The notes under the pieces: model-generated
The model's database searches: none
What the model saw: only the letters and a program-made list of their open reading frames with translations
What the model was told of the DNA's origin: nothing
Assembly: GCF_009914755.1 (NCBI RefSeq)
Contig: NC_060933.1
DNA length: 64,000 nt
Source of the DNA: the human T2T-CHM13v2.0 reference genome, Homo sapiens
Direction: 5' to 3' (one strand)
Made by a program: the position numbers and the translations under genes
Shown: one piece after another, positions 3,745-63,379 of the stretch
How the letters are laid out: every line of letters begins with the position of its first letter
Numbering within the stretch: position 1 is the first letter of the stretch

Positions 3745-4234
<490 letters not shown>

Positions 4235-6055
4235 GAGCAGGCATTCTTGCCTTGTTTTTCATCTTACCAGGAAAGCATCTAACTTCTTACCAGGGAATAT
4301 GATGTTAGCTGTAGGTTTCCTATAGACATTGTCACTTTGAGGAAGTTTCCCTCTATTCCTAATTTCCCGAGAGTTATCGTTAATGGATGTTGGATTTTGT
4401 CAAATGTTTTTCTGCATCTGGTGATGTGATCTTGTTTTTTTTCTTTTTCTTGTTAATGTGATGAAATATATCAGTTTATTTTCAATTGTTGAACTAGCCT
4501 TTCATAATTAGGATAAGGTCCACTTCATCATCTTTTTACACATTATTGGATCCAATTTGCTAATACTTTGTTCAGGATTTTTGCTTAATGAAAGATAGTG
4601 CTCTTTGTTTTTTCTTTCTTGTAATGTCTTTGGTTTTGGTGTATGGTAATAATGACCTCATAGAATAACTAGGGAAGCATTCTGTATGCTTCTGTTTTTT
4701 GGAAAAGATTCTGGAGAATTGTTATAATTTTTCTTTTAAGTGTTAGAATTTACCAGAGAACTCTCTGGGGCTTGGTACTTTCTATTTTATCAGCTTATTA
4801 ATTATTGATTCAGTTCCTTTGATAGATATAGGACAACTCAGATTGTCTTTTTCTCCTGGTGTGAATTTTAGTAGATTGTATATTTCAAAGAAGTGCTGCA
4901 TTTTATGTCGGTTATCAAACTTATGAAGTTGTTAATAATATTTCTTTATTTTTTTAAATGTTTTAATGTCCATAGTATCTATAGAGGTGGTTCTTCTTTA
5001 AATGTTGATATTAATAATTTGTATTCTTTTTCTCTCTTACTCTGGATAGAGATTTACCAATTTTATTTATCTTTTCAAAGAATCAGATTTTTATTTGTTG
5101 ATTTTTTTCTATTGATTTTTCTGTCTTCAATTTTATTGATTTTTATATTTTTCTTCTCCTTATTTTGAGTCTAATTTGTTCTTCCTTTACTAGCTTCCTA
5201 AGGTGAAAAGTTAGATTATTAATTTTAGACCCTCCTTGGGATGCAACATGTATATTCAATGCTATAATTTTGGTCTAAGCATTGTTTTACTGCATTTCAC
5301 ACTTTCATAAGATGTAAGCAAAAATGAAAAGCTATGACCACCCTCTATAACTTACCGCAGTAGCTTTTCCATCCCCTTAATTTTTATCTCTATGGGTCTT
5401 CAAATTTAAAGTTGTATTTTCATTTTCATTTAGTTCAAAATATTTTACAATTCCTCCTGAGACTTCCTTGATCCATTTTTTATTTAGAAGTGTGATGTTA
5501 CGCCTTCATGTATTTTAAAGTTTTCCAGTCATCTTTCTGAATTTGATTTCTAGCTTAATTTCACTGTAGTCATAGAGCATAATTTGCATGACTTACATGC
5601 TTTTAAATAAGTTGCTTTTTAATGGCCTAGATAGTGATGTGTCTTTGTGAACATTCCATGGGAGCTTCAGAAGCATGTGTATTCTGCTGTTGGGTGAATT
5701 ATTCTACACATGTCAATTGGATTAATGTCACTGCTGACTTGAATTACAATATGTCTTCCCTAATTTTTTGCCTGCTTAATCTGCTAATTACTAGTAGAGA
5801 GATGTTAAAGTCTCAAAGTACAGTAGTAAATTCATCTATTTTTCCTTGAAGTTCTATTAGTTTTTGCCTAACATATAGTGATGCTCTGTTTTTAGGTGTG
5901 TAAACACTAAGGATTGTTATGTCTTCTTGGAGAACTGACCGCATTTTTATTATGTAATTACTCTCTTTATTTCTGATAATTCTTCTTGTTCTGAAGTGGG
6001 ATGTGTCATTAATAGAGCTACTCCTGCTTTCTTTGGATTACTGTTAGCATGCTAT

Positions 6056-6627
6056 TGTTGCCAGTGGGCTGTTTCAGGTTCTTGACTTTGCTGCACAAAA
6101 AACTTTGAGAACGAGTCCAAAGTAACAGTAAGCAAAAGAGTTTATTGCAAAGCAAAAGTACACTCTGATAGCTGATCAGAGCAGGCTGCTCAAAGGTGAG
6201 ACAGCCCTGTCTGATGCAGGGGGATCGCCCTTTATGGGAGATTTACATGATTATTCATGGAGGGGTGGGAAGGGGTGTTCTGATGAGTATGTTATGGGTA
6301 GTCCCCTGGCTGCACAGGTGCTGTGGTTGTACATGCTAGGACTTAACATTGCATGTATCATTAGCATCTTAAATCTCCACCCAGGGGTGTTTTTCTTTTA
6401 CTATTATAGTGAATATAGGTCAGTCCAAGGACACTAATCATGGGTTTCTGTGCTTGTGTGAATTTGGGAATTCTCCCTTCTATTTTTCTACCTCCTTGCT
6501 GCAGGATGTTCTAACCCTGAGCCCATGATGTGATTTGTGCACTGTCGGGTAGTTTATTCTCTCCATCTATTTAGCAAGTTTGTTCTCCTTTAAGGGAGGC
6601 TATGACCACCCTTTATAATTTACCTCA
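6056..6627 (-). mobile_element. ERV1-class solo LTR (MER4-group-like)
   Basis: TG...CA termini, near 4-bp TSD ctat/gtat, interrupts L1. Subfamily uncertain. Confidence 0.7.
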
Positions 6628-8909
6628 GTATCTTTTCCATCCCCTTAATTTTTATCTCTATGAGTCTTCAAATTTAAAATGAGCTTCTTGTAGACAGCTG
6701 GGTCTTGTTTTTTGATTTACTATGACAGTCTCTGTATTTTAATTGGTGTGTTTTAGACCATTGACAGTTAAGATGATTATTGATATAGCAATTAATATGT
6801 ACCATCTGTGTTAATGATTTTTCTTTGCCGTCCTTGCTCTTAGTTATTTTTGTCGCGCATAGTTTTCTACTTTTTGTGTTTTAATTGAGCACTTTATATA
6901 ATTTCATTTTCTCTCCTCCCTTAGCATATCAATTATACTTTTTTAAAGTTTTAAAACATTAGTCCTAGAGTTCGCAGTATATTTTTACAACTAATCCAAG
7001 TACACTTTCAAATGACACTATACCACTTCACAGGTAGAAGATATATTAATAACACAATATTCCTAATTCTTCCTTCCTTTCCCTTTTATCATTGCTATCA
7101 CTCACTTCATGTCTACAAAAGTATACAAAAGCATATATATATGCATACATAACCATATATTGTTGCTGTTATTATTTTGAACAAACTATTATGTCTTTGA
7201 TCAATTAAGAACAAAAAAAGAATGTTTTACTTTACTTTTACTTATTAATTCATTGACTCTCTTCTTTTATTTATGTAGATTGGAGTGTCTGACCTACATC
7301 ATTTTCTTTCTGAACTTCCGTTAACATTTCTTGCAAGGTAGGTCTACCAGTAACAATGCCTTCAGGTTTTATTTGTCTGAGAAGAACTTTAGTTCTTATT
7401 ACTTTTGAAGGATAATTTTACAGGGTGCAGAAATCTAGGCTGGTGGTTTTTCTCTCAACCTCACTCTTCTTGCTTGCATGGTTTCTAAGAAAATTTAAGA
7501 AGTAATTCTTATTTTTGCTCCTTTATATGTAAGGTATTTTTCCTCTCTGGCTTCTTTCAAGACTTTTTTTTTTCTTATTTTTGATTTTCTGAAGTTGAAT
7601 ATGAAATGCCTAGGTGTAATTTTTCTTTTCATGTATCCTGTTTGGTGTACTCTGAGCTTTCTTGATCTCTGGTTTGGTGTCTGACACTAGTTTGGAAGGA
7701 ATTTTCAGTCATTATTGTTTCAAATATTGCTTCCATTTTTTTCTCTCTTTCCTGTCCTTTTAAAATTCCCAATATATATATTAACTCCTTTTGTAGTTTT
7801 GTTACTGTTCTTTGATATTCTATTCTGTTTTTACTGAGTAATTTTTTTCCTTGCTCTTTAGTTTTGGAAATTTCTATTATCATATCATCAAACTCAAAGA
7901 TTCTTTTCTGGCTATGTCCAGTCTATTAATGAGCCCATCAAAGCCCTTCTTTATGTCTATTACAATGTCTTTGATCTCCAGCACTTCTTTTTTGATTTTT
8001 TTCTTTGTATCCCCATCTCTCTGTTTACATAATTCATCTGTTCTTGCATGTTGTCTGTTTACTAGAGTCCTTAGCACATTAATCACAATTATTTAAAATA
8101 TCTGCTTTGATAATTCCAACATTCCTGCCATACTTGACTCTGCTTATGATGCTTGTTCATACTTTTCAAACCGTTTTTTTCTTTGCATTTCAGTCTATCT
8201 TGGAATTTTTTTTTGTTGAAAAGTGAACACAATGTACTAAGTAAAAGCAGCTATAGTAAATAGGCCTTTAGTAATGTAGTGATAGAGTGTAAGGGGAAGG
8301 GGAGCATTCTATAGTCCTATGATTACGGCTCAGTCTTTTGGTGAGACTGTGCCCCTTGACTGTGAACTTCATCAGTGCTTCTCAGTTCCTCCCCGACTTT
8401 AGATGAGACATAATGGCTGAAGGGAGGACGAAGTTGTATATTTCCCTTTTTCCATGTGGAAATCTAAAAGGGATTGTAGTTGAGTGTTTCTCTTCCCCCA
8501 CATGAAAGGCCAGAAGGAGATGGAGTTATTTATTCCCTTTTGTGCATGTGGAAGGCTACAGCCAGTTGAGTATTTTCCTTCTGTCACATATAGTAGGCTC
8601 TGATAAAACCCCAGCAGATTAGGCCCTAGTAAAATAGTTTCTCCTGGTGCAGGTCTTGTGAAAAAGAACTGAATACTCCAGCATGTTTCCAAATGGTTCC
8701 TTTCCCCTTCCTCCTGCCAGAAGCATGAGGACATTTTTTCCAACATTCACTGAGAACCTAGTAGAGTTTCTGGAGGCATAATTCACAAAAGTATGGAGAC
8801 CTTCAATGAGTGTACCCACTTGAAGTTTTTAACTTTCAGAGTTGTTCACATTGAGCTCCAGCAATTTGTTAATTACAGTTTCAGGTTTTTCTACTTCAGC
8901 ACTGGTGAT

Positions 8910-17650: not shown

Positions 17651-18463
17651 AAGAATGTTTCTTTCATACGTGAGCACATAGGGTATTTCATGTATTAGCA
17701 TTAATGTTCCTTATCAAATATGCAATCAGGGGCTCTCTATAGAATCAATTTCAATAAAACAGTTAAGCAATTTTTTAATGGAGTAGGCATTGATTATAAT
17801 TTTCTCCTCTTCTGACTTTTCAATTCTTCCCAATTAGCCAGTGATAAGAAACTGGAAAGAAAATTTCAAATTGTTTACCATTCACTTGTTTTTTTTAACC
17901 TACTGTAGTTTGGAAGGATTAAATTTTAGGCTAGCTGATTCATTTCACAAAAAAATTTATAAAATTTATAATTCATTTCACACAAAAAAAGTTTTAATAA
18001 AAAATATTTCCCTTTGTATTTGAGCTCAACTTAATTCTCAATTGGCCCTGAAATGTGAGAATTGTTTTCCTAAAATATTGATGGATGTCAGAAGGCCACA
18101 AGAAGTGAGACCTCATCTTTTTTGCTCTATGAGAACATCAATCTTTCTATTTCTGTGAAAAATAAGGAAAGGTAGGTGGACTCTGGTGATTTCCTGATGT
18201 TGAAGTTAATAAAAAGCTCCATTCAAAACTACGATATTCGGCACAATTAATCTTCCCTGTTAATATAAACAGAAGAAAGAGTAAACTATTTGATCTCAAA
18301 GCTCTGGTTTAATTTCTAGCAAGTACGATTACTTCGGTTCATAATTTAAAAAATGAAAGCTTTAGATTTCTATTCCAAGCCATTACTTGATAAATCATTC
18401 ATTAAAGAACATGAATGCACAAAACAAAAATAAACTTTTTTTTTAAAATTTGGTAAGTGTCAG

Positions 18464-18955
18464 TGTTCTAGGATGTGCTGGCCATTCTTTGTGGAGGTCC
18501 TCAGAACCACCCTCTACCCTTCCAGCCCCAGTGTCACCCTTCCTGCCCGAGTGTCACCCTTCCTGCCCGAGTGTCACCCTGCTCCCCTCCCAGCTGACTT
18601 CCAGTTGGTTTTGGCTAATGAGAGACACCCACAGAAACAGTAAGGTTTCAGAAGTCAGAGCTCAAAAAGTTTCTTCCCTACTCACTCCTGTTTCCAGGTT
18701 CTGACAAGAAATTCTTTTACTTCTATGACTGTGGCTCCTGCCAGACCTTTGTGTTCCCCGGCTGCTGCCTTCTGGGGATCTGGCAGCAACCGTTCCTCCC
18801 TCTGCGCCTCTGCTGTAGGTAGTAAAGGCTTTCTGCTAGTGCTTGTCTTTGGTTGCCACAACGTCACCTGGTGGGTCCCTTCACTTTTCTTTACAGCCTG
18901 TTCCTTTAAACTATCTGAGCAAATCATGCTTTCTTTCTGGGCCTTGACTAATGCA
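18464..18955. mobile_element. Old LTR-like fragment containing a 20-bp tandem repeat (agtgtcacccttcctgcccg x~2.5, 18530-18580)
   Basis: GC-richer block resembling an ERVL/MaLR LTR; the tandem repeat is seen directly. Confidence 0.45.
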
Positions 18956-19294
18956 GTAGTGCATTTTAAAAATCTGACTAATATCACATTGCATTGCTTA
19001 GAAAAATATCATAAGAAAAATAATTCTTTGAGAAGTAGCATATTTGTGAAAGTAGATCTATTTAGGAATTAAAATGCTATTAGATTGGCAGGCAAATGTT
19101 ATATTTTTGTATTCTCACTCTATTTTCTAGAACTGAAAACTAAGTTCTAGCTTAGACTGCAATGCACACGGTATACTACAAAGAGAGACGATAAAATTGC
19201 AGGATGAGAGTATAAAGTACAAGGTAAAACCTTATTGAAACAAAATAAGCACAACTCTATGTACAGGTTGTATGTGTTTATATATAAGAGCCAA

Positions 19295-19605
19295 GGCCGG
19301 GTGTGATGGCTCACGCCTGTAATCTCAAGACTTTGGGAGGCCAAGGCGGGTGGATCACTTGAGCTCAGGAAGTTCGAGACCAGCCTGGGCAACATGGAAA
19401 AACCTTGTCCCTACCAAAAATACAAAAACTTAGCCGGGTGTGGTGGCACTCACTTGTTCTCCCAGCTTCTCAGGAGGCTGAGGCACAAGAATTGCTTGAA
19501 CCTGGGAGGCAGAGGTTGCAGTGAGCGAAGATCACACCACTACTGCACTCCAGTCTAGGCGACAGAGCGAGACTCTGTCTCAAAAAAAAAAAAAAGAAGA
19601 AGAAG
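19295..19605 (+). mobile_element. AluJ/S
   Basis: Full Alu; TSD aagagccaa. Confidence 0.9.
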
Positions 19606-20776
19606 AAGAGCCAAAACAAGGATACATAAGGATACATACCAGCCTGTCAGCCTGTTATGTATCATTGGTTACCTCAGTGAGGTTGGGGTGATGGTAGTGG
19701 CAATTATTAACATTTTCTTTATACAATTCTTTTAAAAATGTTCCTTTTGTAATTCAAAATATTCAAGAACAAATTTCAAAAGAGTCTGTCTTAACAAACA
19801 TTTACATTCTTATAATCCAGAAGCTAGTCATCAAACACACCTCAGTATCATCATTTGTTCCAATATAAATATACTCACTTCCTAAATATGTGCTACTGCA
19901 AAGTAGATCTTATTCCTTTCTTATTCTGGTTGAATCATACAACCATTATCCAGATTGAAATAAAAAATATAATTGTATTTATTATCCATGTTAAGGTTAA
20001 ATAGAAGGTAAGAAGTTTCAAAGTTTAAATTGCATTATCATGGAAAGTAGGGAAGAAAGGAAATAAAGCAGCAACACATAAAACATTTATATTTGTGATA
20101 TTCGATATTTTTTCTGGGACATCCAGTGTTCTAGTTACATCGGCCATCTCGAATTCATGCCTTCATTTGTTCAGTAAGTGTGTAGTGTGTGATGATTGTG
20201 ACGGATGCTTCTCTACTAGGCAAAGTAATTTTTAGAGCCTCACTACTCTTAGTCTGCAAAGTTCATTGCCAGCATTATCACCACAGCAAGTGTCTATGCT
20301 GATTTAAATAATAACCATATAGCAGCAATTATAGCCACATAAAATGCATTTCAAGACACACATTTATGTCTAAGGACTTCAAGTCCCCTAACCAAACAAC
20401 TTAAGTAGAATAAACCTAAATAAGTTTTAAGTCAAAAGCAGGGGAATCAAAACAATTACAAGCCTCCTGTCTTAGAAGAAAATGCTGATGCTTATTGGCT
20501 TAACCATATAAAATAGTGTATATACGTTTACTAGACATGAACAATTTGGAACAAATTTTGAGTGTACCTATAAGTGTGTAAAATGTATATTTTATGTATT
20601 GGGAATAATATTCATAAATATATTCCTCCAATGTTGTAAAAAATGCATGCACCCTCACTACGCTAGTGATTTTACAGTTTAATGAAGCCATTTTGTTTTA
20701 ATTGCAAATGTCTACCACCGTAGAAGTTTCTTGGCTTTTCTCCATTAAGCCTAACACTTTGAACACCCAAGTTCAC

Positions 20777-21068
20777 TTTTTTTTTTTTTGTCTTGAGACG
20801 GAGTCTGGCTCTGTCGCCAAGCTGGAGTGCAGGGCGCAATGTTGGCTTGCTGCAACCTCTGCCTCCCGGGTTCAAGAGATTCTCCTGCCTCAGCCTCCCG
20901 AGTAGCTGGGACTACAGGCAGGCACCACCACGCCCGGTTAATTTTTTGTATTTTAATAGAGACAGGGTTTCACCGTGTTGGCCAGGATGGGCTCCATCTC
21001 CTGACCTCTTGGCCTCCTCGGCCTCCCAAAGTGCTGAGATTACAGGCATGAGCCACCGCACCCGGCCA
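20777..21068 (-). mobile_element. AluSc-like
   Basis: Antisense Alu; TSD aagttcac. Confidence 0.9.
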
Positions 21069-21599
21069 AGTTCACATTTTTAAAGACTCCATCTGATGCC
21101 TGACAAATTGCTATAATAATAGATTGACATTTGTTGTTTTACTCTAGGTCCAATTTAGAAGATGATTTCCATTTTCTCTCTTTCTGTCTCACTGAAGGCA
21201 ACTGATCTGTCAATCAAAACTTTAGATTTATAAGATTTATAATTTTTTCTGTAATAAAAGACGTGCTATTTACAGAGTTCTTGTGCAAAAGTAGTTTAAG
21301 TGAACCCAATTAATAATTCAAGAATGACTTTGTAAGATTCTTCATCTATTACATTTGAATTCATTTTACATTTTACATTTTACATCTATTACATTTGAAT
21401 TCATTTTAATGAAAAAGCCTTTCAAAGTTGTCTTTCCAAAGGGAAGATTAATACACTATTTCTTAGAGATACCATCTAAAAAAGTTAGTATCTTTCTTTC
21501 TTTTTTCTTTTTTGGAAACTCGCGGTGGTGGTAATGTGAGTGAGTTTGTCAATCTTTGCCCCTACTGTGAATTTGAGAAGCAGAGGAAGAGAAAAAGAG

Positions 21600-21670
21600 A
21601 AAGACCCCCCCGCCCCCTGCCTCCCGCCTCCCGCCTCCGCCCCTCCCTCTAGCACACAGCAGGCGCGCAA
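21600..21670. promoter_or_regulatory. Upstream GC-box (Sp/KLF-type) cluster
   Basis: cccccccgccccctgcctcccgcctcccgcctccgcccctccc in otherwise AT-rich sequence. Confidence 0.45.
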
Positions 21671-22029
21671 GGAGTGCAGTGTTAGCTGCTGCTGGACTGA
21701 GCTCCTCATCCTACACTTGCAGGGGTTGCTCTTTTGGACAGAAAGCTGGAATAAAACGTAAATTTTAGACATCCACCAAGGCCAGGACTAGGGTGAAGGG
21801 ACTAACGCACTAGTCTCAGGAGCAACTGTTAAGTAACGCTAATCCTGAATGAATGAAATAGTTTTAAAATTGAATGTAATCGCAAAGAAAAAAAAAACCC
21901 ATGATAGACAAAATATTAAAACTTTAAATAAAGGCTTGCACTCGCACAACCCAGGCTCACCGGCCTCTCCCTGCTCCTGGCCCGGTTTCCCAGCTTGGTT
22001 CTCTACAAGTCAGAATTCCTAGCAAAATC

Positions 22030-22876
<847 letters not shown>

Positions 22877-24893
22877 TAAAAAAATATTTGGAATTGCAAC
22901 CCGAAAAAGACGATTTTGTTTACAATAGACTTTCCTCTTGTGGGGGAGTCTAAGATATACCATGCATGTTTTGACTTTTTAATCGATGTACTTGAATATT
23001 CATTGAGAAAGTGGACGTTTCTGTAAAACCTGAAAAGAGCATCTTAATAAGAGATTAGCCTGCAAATGCTGTCATTTATTCCTTTTTAGGATTGTAATAT
23101 TTTGTAGGAATTAAGTCTAACAGGGAAAAAACTGGCAGACATTACATCATACTGCATCAACTTAGATGTTAGCAGCTTACAGTTTTGCCGACCTTGGCAG
23201 CTTCAGAGTTAAAATGCTAATTAACTTCCATGCAGTATAGGGACAGAGCGCCTGTAGGCGAAACTAAATTAATAACCTGCCCTAACTACTAAGGGAATAA
23301 CACTTGAACACCCCTGTCAGGGGCTTCGTTTCTCATAGTAGAAAGTTCTTGCTTAAAGACAAAACTCAGCCAGTCATTTAGGTGATCTTGAAAATGATTC
23401 CTCTCTGGATGCTAATATTTTACATTATTTAATTTGCCATCAGGTTCCCTGTTTTTTATTTTCCTTAATTTGGTAAACACCTAGGAAGCCTTTATTTCTA
23501 GAATGGGCTATGATTCTAATGTAATGATGATATTCCAGACCGATGAGCAAAACATAATGTACCCATATTTTATCACACATAAAAATGTTTACACAACATT
23601 GCACATTTTTTTTTGGCTTGGAGTAAATCTCTATCAGAGAGCTTTCTTTCTTGATTAATCAAACCATGAGATTAGAATTTTTAAAATGTCTTCCTCTTCC
23701 TTCTCAAATCACTTTTATTTTTCTTTCAGTGGCATCTCCCCGCTGTCAGCCTCAGCCCTCTCCTACCAAAATCTCTTTCGAAATAAGTTCCAATAAACGC
23801 CAGTGGCCATGTTTGGAAATTTAGATTATTGCAGGATAACCAAGGGTAGCTTTCAGCAGTTCTCCTAAACTGTCATGAAAAGTTTGCCGTAGCTCAGTGC
23901 TGTTCTGCCCGCGGGCTCAAGGGTGGGTTGGTTCTTCACACACAGGGCACGCACATGGGTTCATGAACTCACTGTGCATCATGATTCAGTTGCGCCTCAG
24001 TTAATCCTACACTTGGTGTGCCCTTCCAAAAAACAAGCTCCGGATTCCTTTGGTCAGATGCTGTACCGTGTTTCAGATTCAACTTTAATCTGCTTTTGTG
24101 AGAAGCCTTTGTGAATAAAACGTTGTTACTTAAATCAAAATCCTTGGGTCTTGTAATGGAAACTGCCGTTTGGCTTAAATAAACATATAAATGAGTTACT
24201 TATAGAAAGGCATGCTAGAGTAATTGACCAATCAACTGGCAAAATACAACAACAAAAAAAGTCACTAGAGGTCACTCTTACTATTGAATAAACAGGGCTT
24301 CAAAAAGACCTTCCTGGAGAAAAGCAAAGCAATGAAATCTGAGTGAGACCCTGCCACCACCTTTCCTGTTTTTGTTGCATAGTTGTGATTACTTTTTATT
24401 CTCAGGATTAGTTGTATTGATAGTTATTTTGCTTGGAATCCAGTGGAAGGATTACAAAGCCCATAGAAATTAAGCTCTTCTCGTTTATAGTGAACATTCT
24501 TTTTGGAGGAGGGGAGGGCAGGGACAGATATTCCAAATGGACTCAGCACCAGACGGGACTCTCGCGAGTTGCTGAGTGACACGTAAAATTTCAATACTAC
24601 TACTGTGGGTGTTTTCAGTCTTCTTTCGTTGATGAAACTTAGTATCCTCATATCTAATAAATTTTACTAATTTTAAATTACCTTTTAGATCAAGTAATTC
24701 TTCCAGATAAAACTATGTAACTGTAATAATTATACCACCTTCAATACCAAGAAGAAAGTCAATAAGGACATCTAAAAGTTTCCTTCTCATGTAGACACCA
24801 TGAGTTGCTCACGTTATTCACAGCTGGTTTTCGAGAAGCACATTGGCCACCCACGAAGGCAGCCTGTTGATGATGGCATGAAATGGCTCTTCA

Positions 24894-25256
<363 letters not shown>

Positions 25257-25866
25257 TTATCTGAATGTTATTTGACCCGACAAATACATGGAAAGCTTTG
25301 TTAGGAAGATTCTGCATGAAGGGAAATATTTTCCTAACTTCAGTGCCCATAGACTTGCAGTGAGTGAAAGGTCACTTACTGCTCTCATTGAGTCCCTGAA
25401 AACAGCAGGAAGCATCAAGAGAAAGATTGAACTCTGGGCACTGATCCCAGGGATACACAAACAAATGGCTGGGCAGATTTTGCAGAAATTCCTGTAATTG
25501 GTAAAATGCTGAGTAATAGCCTTTGATGTAACTTTTCAGTGGGTTAATTTATTCATTACTTAGCCTAAAACACTTTTAATTTTAATTGCCTCAATTTTTT
25601 CCCCTAAATGGTTATGTTTTGCAAGTTCGCCAGCCAGCCTGGGGAAAGACGGGTAAGCCTACTATAGAGTGTGTGTGGGTTAGTTAGGAAACTCACTTAG
25701 ATGTGAAATGTGTCAGGAAAGAGATCTCACAGAGTGTAGGAATAATTATTTTTACAGATGTTTCATTTTGGACCTTTTAGTAATACCATTTAAAGAGAGA
25801 TTCTGCAGATGAGTAACAGACTCTTAATTTTAGTGTCAAATGGTACTCTATAAAAAATGGAGTTCA

Positions 25867-26122
25867 GGCCGGGCGCGGTGGCTCACACCTGTAATCCCAG
25901 CACTTTGGGAGGGTGAGGTGGGTGGATCACTTGAGGTCTGGAGTTTGAAACCAGCCTGGACAACACGGTGAAACCCCGTCTCTACTAAAAATATGAAAAA
26001 ATTTCAGGGCATGGTGGCAGGTGCCTGTGAGGAGGCAGTGAGCTGAGATCGTGCCACTGCACTCCAGCCTGGGTGACAGAGTGACACTCTGTCTCAAAAA
26101 AATAACAAAAAAAACCCAAAAA
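25867..26122 (+). mobile_element. AluS with an internal right-arm deletion
   Basis: gcctgtgaggaggcagtgagc junction lacks about 50 nt of the right arm. Confidence 0.85.
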
Positions 26123-29100
26123 ATGTAGTTCAGTTGCCTTTATTCATTTTCACCAAACTCTACACAAACAGTACGGAGCATAAGTAGCCCATGGAAATGA
26201 TAATCAATTCCAAGACATTGGTTTGGTCCTGAAAAAAGAAAAATCAAATTACTTGGCATTCTTCTTCCTCTTCCTCTCCCCTTCTCTTTTTGAACAATTC
26301 AGTCCAAGGTCATTCAGTTCAGCTTAGGCATCCATGCTGGGTAGTGGGGAGGCCCAGGACCATGGCAGAGCATTCAGAAACCAGCAGGGTAAGGAAAGCA
26401 TCCACAGTGTAGCAAGGGTGGGGACCTGGAGAGACAGGAGACAGCACTGGTGGTGACCTATAGCAAGTTGTCAGAGGTTGAGTGGAGTGAGGAAAGAGGC
26501 ATTGGAATGATTGACAGAGGCTAAGAAGACAAGGCAACTAAATACTATTCTGCATTAAATGCTTATGTTATAAAGGACATGATTGGAAATTGGTGAAACT
26601 TGAACAAGATTGGGGATTAAATATTGGAACTTTATCCATGATGACTGTGATGATCATATTATGGTTATATAGGAGAACATCTTTGTTGTAGGAAATGTAC
26701 ATTGAAGTATTCAGGGGTGATACAGCATATTAGCATAGTTCTTCCATGTTTTCTGTAAATTGGTTTCAAAATCAAATGGTTACTTTAAAAAACCATTCAA
26801 AATTGTGTTTAAAGGAAACATGGACCAATAGAAAAACTCAGAATAAGTAAATGTAGTTAAATTGATGCATTTTACCTAAGAGATGTAGATTAAAAATAAA
26901 GAGGCTGAAAAAAAACAATTATGAGAAATAACAGTTCGTTTATGTATGTCTCTAAATCAAATTAGCCTGGATTTCTGAATGACAAAGATGTAATTGGCAC
27001 TGGGATTGTTCCCCATTCTTTTTGGGACGTTTATTGCCTAGGACATCTGTATCAGTCTTCGAAGTACTTTTTAAAGCTTGAATATCTGAATGAACCCGTC
27101 AGACTGACTGTTATCTGGTCTTCTGTAATGGGCTTCCTCACCTTTGACGAGACTCTTAGCTGAAAGGTTGCTTGTCCCTAGGCCCGGTTGCTCCACGTTG
27201 TAAGAGCATTTGCAAACGCTTGGTTTTACATGATTGTGCACATGTCAAGTCTGCTCTGTCACTGTAGAAAAAATATTCCTTTTCCACTTGACATATAAAG
27301 CATGGAATTGTTTGTTTTAAATGTCTTTTGTCAAGGATTTCATATATCTGCTTGACGTGTTGTGGTACTGTATAAAAGACAAGTGTGAAATTCATTGCTT
27401 ACTATGATAGCCTTAACACGACTACAGTAAATCTAGTTTTCTAAAAAACGGAGTATATGCTTAGCTTGGTTAAAATTTTATAATGAAATGACTACTCTGG
27501 TAATAAATATTAAAAAATATCATAAAGTGGGGGCTAAAAAATGATACTGCATGTGTTCCAGTTAATGAACATTTTTGTTGTAATAATACGAAGAGTGATT
27601 GAAATCTGAAAACATTTGAGATTTTAAAATAGTTTTAACCTTGTAACTACAGGATTGTAATTTAAGTAGCATACCTACTTAATAAGGCAGCAATTAAAAT
27701 TATTGCTAAGAATTAAATTACCAAGAAGACATGGTCTAGTATGTATTGCCTGGGCTGTGGTTTGAATTACTTTTGATTAAGTATAATCACATTTTTTGAG
27801 AGTATAAAAACAGAGGATATTACTTGCTTCTAATTCACAGATGTGTTTATGAACCATTGGCAATTACAGCATTTGCAATTGAGGGCCTAAGAAAATTTTA
27901 GGTTAAAATAACATGTTGAGTTATGCCTTATAACTCAGTATATGCTTATACTTTATATGCTTTATGGAGTTTTGAATATATAATATATATGTATAATAGT
28001 ATATTTTTCCAGGAAATATATAACTTGTAGTTCCTTGACTTATTTTGTAACTAAATCCCATGGAAAAAAGTTTATTGAATGTCATTGTTTCTCAGGCAAA
28101 TGTAGAGTTAAGAGAATGATATATATATACATATTGGGAATCTTTTAGAAGGCTTGGACTTGGTAGCTCAAATCTTCTACAACCTTGAGCTTCAACTTTC
28201 TGGCCGGTTCAAGAGATCTCTTCACTGTCCTTTTCATGTAAAGTCAATGTTTATGGAACACTAGACCAAAATGGAAGGATTCCTTTGGAAACTGAACAAA
28301 CAGTTGAATTAGTCTTTGACTTGATGGAGTGATTTGATCTAAAATATTACCTAACCGTTTTAGATATCTGTTCAATCAGAGCTGCCTCCATATACGCAAA
28401 TGATAATTTGTCTTGGATTTTTAGATATCTTAGCCCTCAGACAAGCTAATAGAGTTTAAATTGAACCTGGTGTTTTAGGGACAGTTGAATTGTTGGGATG
28501 CCCAGGAAAACAGTCACATTTTTCTACAAGTATGTGTTTATTTGGCTGGAATGTGGGTGAGGAAGAAGTTATATGTGAATTAAAAGAAAGATTGTCTCAA
28601 TGTCACATGTTAAATTAAATTACAGACAGAACTAAGCGAGTTTACGATTGCTGCCGCTGGGAGCAGAGACTATTTTCAGCTTACATTTATAACAGAAGGA
28701 GGGATTTAAAATATAGTATTATGCCTACCCTGATACAGCTAACCTCTTCCACCCGCCCCTCCATGCACATACAGCTACATGCTTACCCTCGAACTATGAA
28801 AGAAGGGTGTCTCTCAGACATCCTATATTTAACCCAGCTTTGGACACGTCCCTGGAGTCTAGTCTTTTTGAACACAGCAGTGAAGATAAGGAATGGGGAG
28901 GGGGCTTTGATTTCAAGACCACTAGATATAGTAGATTCCTAATTTAATTTCAAAGACAAATCAATTATTAACACAAATACAAAGAGAACAGTATTTTAAA
29001 CAAAGCTTCTGTTGTGGCAGATAAACTTTTAAGGTGTCTCCCAGTTGGGTTTCTATTTTAGATGACTTTTTGAAGAATATATCTCTGTAATAGAAATATG

Positions 29101-29624
29101 TTTGATGATTCTCATCTTTAAGAACTTCACATTTGCTATAATTAAGATATTTATGAATTTATTGTAAGAAGGTTGGTAGAAAAAGTAATGCAACATCAAA
29201 TGGGAAAATAAATATATAATATTATATAGCTGTTCAAATATAGGGTTTATGATTCTTGAGCTAATTTGAACTGCTGTACAACACCAGGAGAAAAGTCCAC
29301 AGCTGTGTTAAGAAAGCTCTTATAAGCTTATGAAATTTTATAGCACAGGCTGTCACAGAACCTACAATTTACAAACATTTGTAAAAGTTAGGAAAGTTTT
29401 GGGTTCCTCAATAGAAAATGATGTTGCTTAGCTTTAAGAAAGTAACTAATTTATCTCTTTTTATTCTTGTCCACTAACAAAGGAACCCAAATGGTCTTTT
29501 AAAATTATAATAAAACTAAGCTAGTAAAATATCACATAGATTTTGAGATACTGTGAATAACCATAGAAAATAACAATTTGTTGTTCTTCATGTATAAAAA
29601 TAAGCTTAACATGCTTATCAATAC

Positions 29625-29957
29625 ATCTTGAACTATAAGAGATTTATTTCAGCAGTGTTGCCAAAGGGCAAGCAATGCCTGCTGCCTGTAGAAAACTTTG
29701 AATTCCCTAAGCTCAGGGCTCCTCACTTGTCATGTAACCCACTGCGTGTGCACACATCCATCTGTGCCCATCCATATTCCCCCAGAGGACTTGGAGGCAA
29801 GGAAATTGATGCAAATATGCTGATGCTCACATTGTTTGCTATGCTGTAAGTAATACAGTCCTTTGCTTTGACCCAGGAGTCTTCTGCCGCAACCATGAAA
29901 CAAACTGGCAGACTCATTTGTTAGCTTGCAAGTAGGGTAAAATCTCTCCTCACGGTT
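29625..29957 (+). mobile_element. Old ERVL-type LTR, 3' terminus clipped
   Basis: ttagcttgcaagtagggtaaaatctc...cacggttct resembles an ERVL LTR 3' end lacking the terminal tgaca. Subfamily uncertain. Confidence 0.55.
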
Positions 29958-29965
29958 CTCATGAT
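29950..29965. other. Candidate breakpoint of the deletion removing exons 2-9
   Basis: An LTR ends just short of its terminus and abuts a 67-bp Alu 5' stub, followed by only the 3' part of a MER58-like element. Confidence 0.7.
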
Positions 29966-30024
29966 CCGCCCGCCTTGGCCTCCCAAAGTGCTGGGTTTAC
30001 AGGCGTGAGCCACCGCGCCCAGCC
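29958..30024 (-). mobile_element. Alu 5' stub (first ~67 nt only)
   Basis: ctcatgatccgcccgccttggcctcccaaagtgctgggtttacaggcgtgagccaccgcgcccagcc; no right arm or A tail. Confidence 0.9.
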
Positions 30025-30145
30025 CTGCTTTGTATTTTTAAAGGGTTATAACAAGAAGGACATGCAACAGAGACCAGGTGTGACCCACAAAACCAAAAGT
30101 GTTTACTATCTGCGTTTTACAGAAAACCTTTGCAGACTCCTGACT
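30025..30145 (+). mobile_element. MER58-like (hAT-Charlie) 3' part
   Basis: agagaccaggtgtgacccacaaaaccaaaagtgtttactatctgcgttttacagaaaacctttgcagactcctg matches the MER58 terminus. Confidence 0.7.
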
Positions 30146-31255
30146 TAGACAAATGCCTTATGATTTTATTCTGAATTAATATGACCCTTTCTACAAACAG
30201 TTGTCTTTAAATAAAAAGATTTTACAATTATTGTGTTTTCTTTAACTAGAGTGTGTACTTTCATCCTTTTCCTTACTTTTCAAACTTAGAGTTCCATTAT
30301 TAGGTTATATATTGTAACTCAAGAGGGTGGGAGTAAGTTCAAGACACTACTTTCCTATATGCTTGGACTGGTGTGGAGTAATACTGCTTACGTCAAAGTC
30401 AGGCACTCACCACTGCTTCTTATAAGTACTGTTCTTGTTTCACAAAACAAGCCCACATAGTAAAGGGAAGTGATGTCATAAGCATTGCCATTTGTAATTT
30501 AGGTGAAATTAGCTGACGATTGTAGTGAAACTTTTAATATTTAACTTCTACTATTGGAAATAAATGTCTATTTTATCTCTTTCTATTCATAGAACATTCT
30601 GGACTGCAAATTTTTATCCTTATGTACCCTAACAGTGTGTTATGTCCTGTTACTTTTTGTGTTGTTGTTAACATTAGAATTTAATCTTTAGTTATATATT
30701 TGACTAAAGTACCTAATACCAAAGAAAGTGTTACTAGAAAAGCAAATCTAGGTATTTCCACCCAGTCAGTATAAAAAAATACGTTTTTAAATACTCCCAA
30801 ATATACATACATCGCAACACACAAAAACACCTATAGGGTAGATATTTAACATATTTTAGATAAATGGTAGTACACAATTATATTTTCAGGTAGCATTTTT
30901 CACACTTCACAGCATATCCTAAATAAAATTTGGGCTATGATTTCATTTATTTTAATTTAACCTCCACTTTAATTTTTTTCACTTATACTACATAATGCTA
31001 AAATGCATGCTTATTTCTTAGATGAGATTTCACAAAAGAAGCCAAACCTCTTTTCACTTGGTTGGGAAATAATTCCTGTTATAGGAATTTTAGATCTGAA
31101 TTTTCCCCCGTAATTTCTTATTCTGAATTCCAGGTATTATCTTAAATTTGATCAGTTCTAACCTTGCCCCTTCTCACCTCTCTAATGAATGGTGAAGCTC
31201 ATCGCATCATACCGATGTCCATAAACAAGCGGGAGCAGCAGTCTTCATATAGTAA

Positions 31256-31489
<234 letters not shown>

Positions 31490-31651
31490 TAAGGGCCATC
31501 CTAGGTCACTTTAGCTTGCCTGTTTTCAAAGTTGAAGAAAGCAAATGTAGACAGCTGGAAAAAGGCATTCCGTTCTCTTTTTTGTTGTTGTTATCTTTCG
31601 AGAGGGAATGAAATAGTCATAATTACTATGAGGATTAGAAAACTTCATCTT

Positions 31652-32005
<354 letters not shown>

Positions 32006-36893: not shown

Positions 36894-37190
<297 letters not shown>

Positions 37191-40529: not shown

Positions 40530-40892
<363 letters not shown>

Positions 40893-48189: not shown

Positions 48190-48560
<371 letters not shown>

Positions 48561-50379: not shown

Positions 50380-61760
<11,381 letters not shown>

Positions 61761-63151: not shown

Positions 63152-63379
<228 letters not shown>

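What the first reader, a model, noticed from the sequence alone, without database searches (positions are those of the whole stretch)
29930..30145. Deletion breakpoint located by three repeats truncated at one spot
Seen: an LTR stops at ...cacggttct just short of its terminus and runs straight into an antisense Alu that keeps only its 5' 67 nt. The next element is only the 3' part of a MER58-like transposon. Known: retrotransposition truncates the 5' end of an Alu, not the 3' end, so this stub implies a later deletion. Inference: intron 1 sequence (left) is joined to intron 9 sequence (right) at ~29958-29960, with at most ~2 bp microhomology (ct). That suggests end-joining rather than Alu-Alu recombination.
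Basis: partly seen in the sequence, partly recalled or inferred. Interest (0 to 1): 0.72.

Follow-up and report, generated by a model that had tools for sequence, protein, structure and literature searches.

The report
Hybrid CNTNAP3 pseudogene with deletion junction
In one of four copies of the nerve-cell adhesion gene CNTNAP3 on human chromosome 9, the first intron runs straight into a much later intron, so the exons for 464 amino acids are missing, likely through ordinary DNA end-joining; the copy has further breaks and is likely a hybrid of two sister genes, an ordinary scar of gene duplication.

Summary
The junction is real. Window 29959 and 29958 match places 129.5, 150.3 and 150.4 kb apart in the three other chr9 CNTNAP3 copies, overlapping by 2 bp (CT), with no inserted bases. 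Those copies hold the uncut LTR end and a full Alu (15-bp target duplication) nested in a MER58-like element. No Alu lies at the left break, so Alu-Alu recombination is out. The copy keeps its CpG island, exon 1 and exons 10-24, though RefSeq lists two exons. The loss is in frame (464 codons), but the exon-1 donor reads AT and exon 13 has a stop. New here: affinity switches at the junction. The left side is closer to CNTNAP3, the right to CNTNAP3B (44:33 versus 25:115 diagnostic sites, p = 7e-9). Most likely an unequal crossover made a hybrid copy and end-joining later deleted its middle; a direct join of two paralogs fits too. None of nine literature searches listed a description of it. A well-resolved but ordinary duplication scar; population status untested.

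The parts
22001..22666 (+). CpG island and 5' untranslated region of the copy (promoter function not tested)
   Evidence: GC 0.68, CpG observed/expected 0.99 at 22001-22500; 1 of 72 CpG shows a private transition
22667..22751 (+). Coding exon 1 (85 nt), 28 of 28 residues identical to CNTNAP3
   Evidence: tblastn with P0007; boundaries
22752..22753 (+). Dead exon-1 splice donor: AT where the 3 other copies have GT
29662..29959 (+). LTR-like repeat cut about 5 bases before its 3' end (start approximate; family not tested)
   Evidence: 36 dispersed matches at 69-82%; pairwise comparison of ends
29958..29959 (.). Junction: 2-bp overlap CT, no inserted bases; joins intron 1 to the intron before exon 10
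29958..30025 (-). 5' 68 nt of an antisense Alu that is full length in the paralogs
30026..30040 (+). Surviving copy of the Alu's 15-bp target-site duplication
   Evidence: present twice in 3 of 3 paralogs
30026..30142 (.). Remaining 117 bp of a 171-bp MER58-like DNA transposon (name recalled)
   Evidence: in the intact paralog the termini match as inverted repeats at 10 of the first 14 bases and the flanking 8-mers at 6 of 8
31317..31488 (+). Exon 10 (172 nt), first exon after the junction, in phase with exon 1
36953..37059 (+). Exon 11
40702..40821 (+). Exon 12 (not in the RefSeq model)
48240..48443 (+). Exon 13 with a premature stop at 48389-48391 (codon 676), absent from the 3 other copies
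63222..63378 (+). Exon 14; exons 15-24 follow beyond the window, to window-equivalent 107629, all internal splice sites AG/GT

Best explanation
This copy of CNTNAP3 has intron 1 joined to the intron before exon 10 over a 2-bp overlap and lacks 464 codons, likely because a large internal deletion was sealed by end-joining in a copy that was likely already a CNTNAP3/CNTNAP3B hybrid. Shown: the junction, the three damaged repeats, the in-frame loss, the dead exon-1 donor, the exon-13 stop, and the switch of paralog affinity at the junction. Inferred, step 1: unequal crossover between the directly oriented CNTNAP3B and CNTNAP3 copies made a copy with a CNTNAP3 5' end and a CNTNAP3B 3' end, the crossover lying somewhere in the 130-150 kb now gone. 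Inferred, step 2: two breaks, one at the LTR end and one inside the Alu, were joined without long homology. Inferred, step 3: the copy decayed; any RNA from its promoter would be non-coding or degraded. The junction being real and non-homologous: about 0.95. This order of events: about 0.5.
For: Junction resolved to the base against 3 paralogs. Interior exons appear 3 times in the genome, exons 13, 17, 18, 19 and 22 four times (stricter first look, 36 of 273 candidates scored). At sites where the 39.3 Mb copy differs from the other two, the window sides with it at 44 of 78 left and 25 of 141 right (p = 7e-9); within about 3 kb of the junction 15:5 versus 8:31 (p = 7e-5). The distance between CNTNAP3 and CNTNAP3B stays level (1.61% left, 1.69% right) while the window's distance to CNTNAP3B falls from 1.85% to 0.87%. 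Against CNTNAP3: 318 differences in 39,467 columns left, 1,228 in 82,745 right. The change-point interval 29,688-31,661 holds the junction. The window scores nearer CNTNAP3 than CNTNAP3B in 3 of 3 left samples and the reverse in 4 of 4 right samples. Three residues (Y1032, S1051, V1230) are shared with CNTNAP3B and absent from 3 chimpanzee, 1 gibbon and 1 macaque protein. Left distance to CNTNAP3 (0.81%) about equals right distance to CNTNAP3B (0.87%), as one time of hybrid formation predicts. A CNTNAP3-5'/CNTNAP3B-3' polarity is what a duplication between these two same-strand copies gives (inference from coordinates).
Against: No undeleted hybrid parent was seen, so step 1 is unobserved. The window copy is on the + strand and both supposed parents on the - strand, which needs a later inversion (not tested). 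Affinity switches also occur away from the junction: at 4300-6700 the nearest copy is the 78.8 Mb one. In the 8 kb left of the junction the distance to CNTNAP3 is 1.28%, higher than 0.87% on the right. The best single change point is 30,830-30,905, about 0.9 kb right of the junction; the junction interval is 1.5 log units lower. No outgroup DNA was available; only the protein sites are polarised. One haplotype only.
Confidence: 0.5

Rival explanations
1. One event joined two different genes: a broken end in CNTNAP3 intron 1 was joined, or switched template, to CNTNAP3B intron 9. The junction is then a duplication breakpoint and no intact parent copy ever existed.
For: Explains the junction and the affinity switch at once. 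An 8-of-9 match lies 4 bases out of register before the overlap; 4.0% of 20,000 random intron pairs and 1.0% of random left 20-mers score as high, weakly suggesting imperfect priming.
Against: Both ends of a non-homologous event must fall, in gene order, within two paralogs, whereas unequal crossover and intragenic deletion are each common (general knowledge). The 8-of-9 match was noticed after the fact.
Confidence: 0.28
2. A plain deletion in a uniform copy came first; afterwards each flank was overwritten by gene conversion or crossover with its nearest inverted neighbour (CNTNAP3 on the left, CNTNAP3B on the right), the junction acting as a boundary.
For: Exchange is evident: the bit deficit to CNTNAP3B shrinks to 11 bits over 3 kb at the 3' end, and the distance to CNTNAP3 is lower 10-30 kb left of the junction than next to it. 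The copy is inverted relative to both neighbours, each about 2 Mb away.
Against: The switch is already sharp within 3 kb of the junction, where 43 left and 35 right private variants show long independent evolution; conversion would have had to cover more than 80 kb up to the break.
Confidence: 0.15
3. Assembly error: two partial copies were mis-joined.
For: The region is a high-identity segmental duplication; a neighbouring pair, CNTNAP3/CNTNAP3C, is suspected to be a false duplication in GRCh38 (PMC11890787, passage). No reads were seen.
Against: Both flanks carry private variants found in no other copy, and both the dead donor (left) and the stop (right) are private. Flank copy numbers match (4 and 4) while interior exons number 3. 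Mis-joins favour long shared repeats, and there is none here.
Confidence: 0.04
4. Alu-Alu recombination made the deletion.
For: The right break lies inside an Alu.
Against: No Alu in the paralog DNA from 2 kb before to 1.5 kb after the left break (one alignment per left locus, none to either Alu of the query); the product is LTR-Alu, not a chimeric Alu.
Confidence: 0.01

Closest known systems
Non-recurrent deletions sealed by end-joining or microhomology-mediated template switching (NHEJ, MMEJ, MMBIR; recalled)
   Same: Unique breakpoints, 1-2 bp overlap, no insertion, no long homology, one end in an Alu.
   Different: The two sides belong to different paralog lineages, which such deletions do not require.
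RefSeq CNTNAP3P4 (annotation given with the finding)
   Same: Same locus, called a pseudogene; its two exons are exons 10 and 11 here.
   Different: The model covers 2 of 16 retained exons and omits the CpG island, exon 1, exons 12-24, the junction and the hybrid state.
Hybrid or truncated paralogs in human segmental duplications (for example GYPA/GYPB hybrids, SRGAP2C, ARHGAP11B; recalled, not tested)
   Same: A duplicate of a neural or surface-protein gene with a changed exon set; the loss keeps the reading frame.
   Different: In this haplotype the copy is disabled twice (donor, stop), so no new protein is expected.

Membership tests
Microhomology or blunt end-joined deletion | Flanks are distant in an intact counterpart | tested here: met
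   129.5-150.4 kb apart in 3 of 3 paralogs
Microhomology or blunt end-joined deletion | 0 to a few bases of overlap, no long homology, no insertion | tested here: met
   2 bp against 2 paralogs, 1 bp against the third
Microhomology or blunt end-joined deletion | Overlap longer than chance (to call it microhomology-mediated) | tested here: not met
   17% of 20,000 random joins reach 2 bp
Microhomology or blunt end-joined deletion | Both ends come from one molecule (deletion, not duplication junction) | tested here: inconclusive
   the sides come from different lineages; the parent is unseen
Alu-Alu mediated rearrangement | An Alu at both breakpoints, product a chimeric Alu | tested here: not met
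Unprocessed (duplicated) pseudogene | Introns kept, collinear with the parent | tested here: met
   three alignments cover window-equivalents -9929 to 114000 at 97.7-98.8%
Unprocessed (duplicated) pseudogene | Disabling lesions | tested here: met
   donor AT at 22752, stop at 48389-48391; the 3 nearest GT sites give frames of 40-44 residues
Unprocessed (duplicated) pseudogene | No functional product in cells or in other haplotypes | not testable with these tools
   no RNA or population data
Paralog hybrid | Diagnostic sites switch from one paralog to another | tested here: met
Paralog hybrid | Crossover point found in continuous homology | not testable with these tools
   it would lie in the deleted interval
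hAT-type MITE (MER58-like) | Terminal inverted repeats and 8-bp target duplication | tested here: inconclusive
   10 of 14 and 6 of 8 matches, no chance control; the family name was not tested

The most novel reading that the evidence does not exclude
The junction created an in-frame chimeric gene on the human lineage: CNTNAP3 promoter and signal peptide on CNTNAP3B exons 10-24, an 824-residue Caspr3 without its discoidin domain and first laminin-G domains. It is dead in this haplotype but survives, with an intact donor and no stop, in some people, as a copy-number-variable short Caspr3.
Probability: 0.06. Interest if true: 0.7.

Novelty: new member of a known kind. Interest (0 to 1): 0.3.

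Why it matters
It gives a base-exact, PCR-able marker for one copy in the hard-to-map chr9 duplications and corrects that copy's annotation (16 exons and a CpG island, not 2 exons). Because its exons 10-24 are nearly identical to CNTNAP3B, reads from it, including the stop in exon 13, would be expected to mis-map and could pass as CNTNAP3B or CNTNAP3 variants or expression. The affinity switch is a dated trace of how the 9p copies arose. The mechanism itself is well known.

Tried and rejected
Two 20-kb DNA searches meant to rank the paralogs returned only dispersed repeats and were not used. The first donor look-up for two copies and the first target-duplication scan had script errors; they were redone. 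A protein of the exon 1-to-10 form was sought among 121 stored proteins (120 of 385 hits were listed): none from a primate had exon 10 within 200 residues of its start. The only open frame across the junction is 30 codons on the minus strand and half Alu; it was not pursued. A second Alu, inverted, lies 1.7 kb right of the break at 81-82% identity; judged too diverged and distant to explain the break (general knowledge). CpG decay as a sign of promoter silencing: 1 of 72 in the island, 3 of 58 and 6 of 116 in introns; too few to decide. The deleted interval was not read, so exons 2-9 were not each located: 4 interior exons were found and the count of eight rests on the gaps between them and on recall.

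Full report
Question.

The junction. Each flank was searched alone in the window's genome. The left flank has 4 copies at 98-100% on contig C9 and so has the right. I call the others A (39.1-39.3 Mb, minus), B (43.4-43.7 Mb, minus) and C (78.8-79.1 Mb, plus). A matches the CNTNAP3 protein P0007, and B shares residue R21 with the CNTNAP3B protein P0005; that C is CNTNAP3P2 is recalled. In A, B and C the left match ends at window 29959; the right match starts at 29958 in B and C and at 29959 in A. The two points lie 129.5, 150.3 and 150.4 kb apart. The overlap is CT and nothing is inserted. A 121-base junction query gave one full-length match, the window itself, among 40 scored of 1313 candidates.

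The repeats. Dispersed copies of the LTR keep their likeness to the intact paralog for about 18-22 bases past a shared anchor (5 of 10 clear by eye), so the cut falls about 5 bases before the end. In 3 of 3 paralogs the Alu is a 305-306-bp insert between 15-bp target duplications; the window keeps its 5' 68 nt and one duplication. The Alu sits inside a 171-bp element with imperfect terminal inverted repeats; 54 bp of it left with the deletion. So two repeats are cut at the junction and the third lost its front part. Family names are recalled.

How it was joined. No Alu lies from 2 kb before to 1.5 kb after the left break, which excludes Alu-Alu recombination. Two bases of overlap are common by chance (17% of 20,000 random joins). 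An 8-of-9 match 4 bases out of register is reached by 4.0% of random pairs; it was noticed after the fact and is only a hint. End-joining and a replication template switch cannot be told apart here.

The gene copy. It aligns to A in three blocks from window-equivalent -9929 to 114000. It keeps a CpG island, exon 1 and the 15 exons for residues 493-1288. The missing part is 1,392 nt, 464 codons, including the discoidin domain at 46-174 and, by recall, the first and most of the second laminin-G domain. Exon 1 and exon 10 are in phase; spliced, they would give 824 residues. But the exon-1 donor reads AT where A, B and C read GT, the three nearest GT sites give frames of 40-44 residues, and exon 13 has a stop at codon 676 that A, B and C lack. 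Four more residue changes are private (R598Q, E677G, R683L, R693Q). In this haplotype it is a pseudogene. RefSeq's model holds 2 of the 16 exons.

The two sides differ in ancestry. Over 6,649 columns left of the junction the window differs from A, B and C by 1.28, 1.85 and 1.70%; over 9,833 columns right of it by 1.58, 0.87 and 0.84%, while A to B stays at 1.61 and 1.69% (columns within 3 of a gap were dropped). At sites where A differs from B and C, the window sides with A at 44 of 78 left and 25 of 141 right (p = 7e-9; non-CpG sites 28:18 and 14:83). Within about 3 kb the counts are 15:5 and 8:31 (p = 7e-5). Against A over the whole span: 318 of 39,467 left and 1,228 of 82,745 right. The change-point support interval is 29,688-31,661, with its best point at 30,830-30,905. 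Bit scores put A above B in both further left samples and B above A in all three further right samples. Three residues shared with CNTNAP3B are absent from five ape and monkey proteins. Against a simple picture: C is the nearest copy at 4300-6700, so switches also happen elsewhere, and near-identity to B at the 3' end shows later exchange.

Reading. Three histories fit. (1) Unequal crossover made an A-5'/B-3' hybrid and a later deletion removed the crossover with exons 2-9; both steps are common, the deleted stretch is more than half the gene, and the left distance to A (0.81%) matches the right distance to B (0.87%). I give it 0.5. It needs a later inversion, since this copy is on the other strand. 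(2) One event joined A to B directly: 0.28. (3) A plain deletion, then conversion of each flank: 0.15. Mis-assembly is unlikely (0.04) because both flanks carry private variants and interior exons number three against four. Taking about 1.2% for human-chimpanzee divergence (recalled), 0.8-0.9% would put the hybrid at roughly 4-5 million years, on the human lineage; this is an inference without outgroup DNA.

Literature. Nine searches listed no paper on this junction; most were seen as listings with abstract starts only. CNTNAP3P4 appears in one paper, as a row in a table of differentially expressed genes in corneal endothelium (PMC11682284, passage); mis-mapping is possible. PMC11890787 (passage and one supplement row; one supplement was unreadable) treats CNTNAP3/CNTNAP3C, not this copy. 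PMC11576641 and bioRxiv 10.64898/2026.07.02.735893 (passages) concern CNTNAP3B. Structural-variant tables in supplements and subscription papers that I could not see may list the event.

Verdict. The added points are the under-annotated copy, the in-frame loss that was later disabled, and the hybrid ancestry. The kind of event is well known. Interest 0.3; new member of a known kind.

Noticed in passing
window 22001-64000 and L033-L037: RefSeq CNTNAP3P4 lists 2 exons, but the copy holds a CpG island, exon 1 and exons 10-24.
   Followed up: yes
G000:C9 39.16-39.29 Mb against 43.52-43.67 and 78.84-78.99 Mb: The 39 Mb copy is about 21 kb shorter between the two breakpoints than the other two: about 3 kb before the exon for residues 64-130 and about 18 kb between that exon and the one for residues 179-250 (places).
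   Followed up: no
L041 (window-equivalents 23519 and 23983): The 78.8 Mb copy lacks 463 bp and 654 bp of intron 1 that the other three copies have.
   Followed up: no
window 4300-6700 against 17700-29936: The 78.8 Mb copy is the window's nearest relative far upstream but groups with the 43.7 Mb copy nearer the gene, so it is itself a mosaic.
   Followed up: partly
L037:3300-6300 (exon 24 and 3' end): Nearly identical to the 43.4 Mb copy (11 bits below the self score over 3 kb), a sign of recent exchange between these inverted neighbours.
   Followed up: partly
L034, window-equivalent 77698-77705: The exon-16 donor differs from the 39 Mb copy at +4 (GTAGGC against GTAAGC), possibly weaker.
   Followed up: no
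window 59237-59292: The alignment to the 39 Mb copy breaks here with about 135 extra bases in the window, inside a masked repeat.
   Followed up: no
window about 3930-4240: An Alu 98-99% identical to many dispersed copies, so a young insertion; its presence in each paralog was not checked.
   Followed up: no
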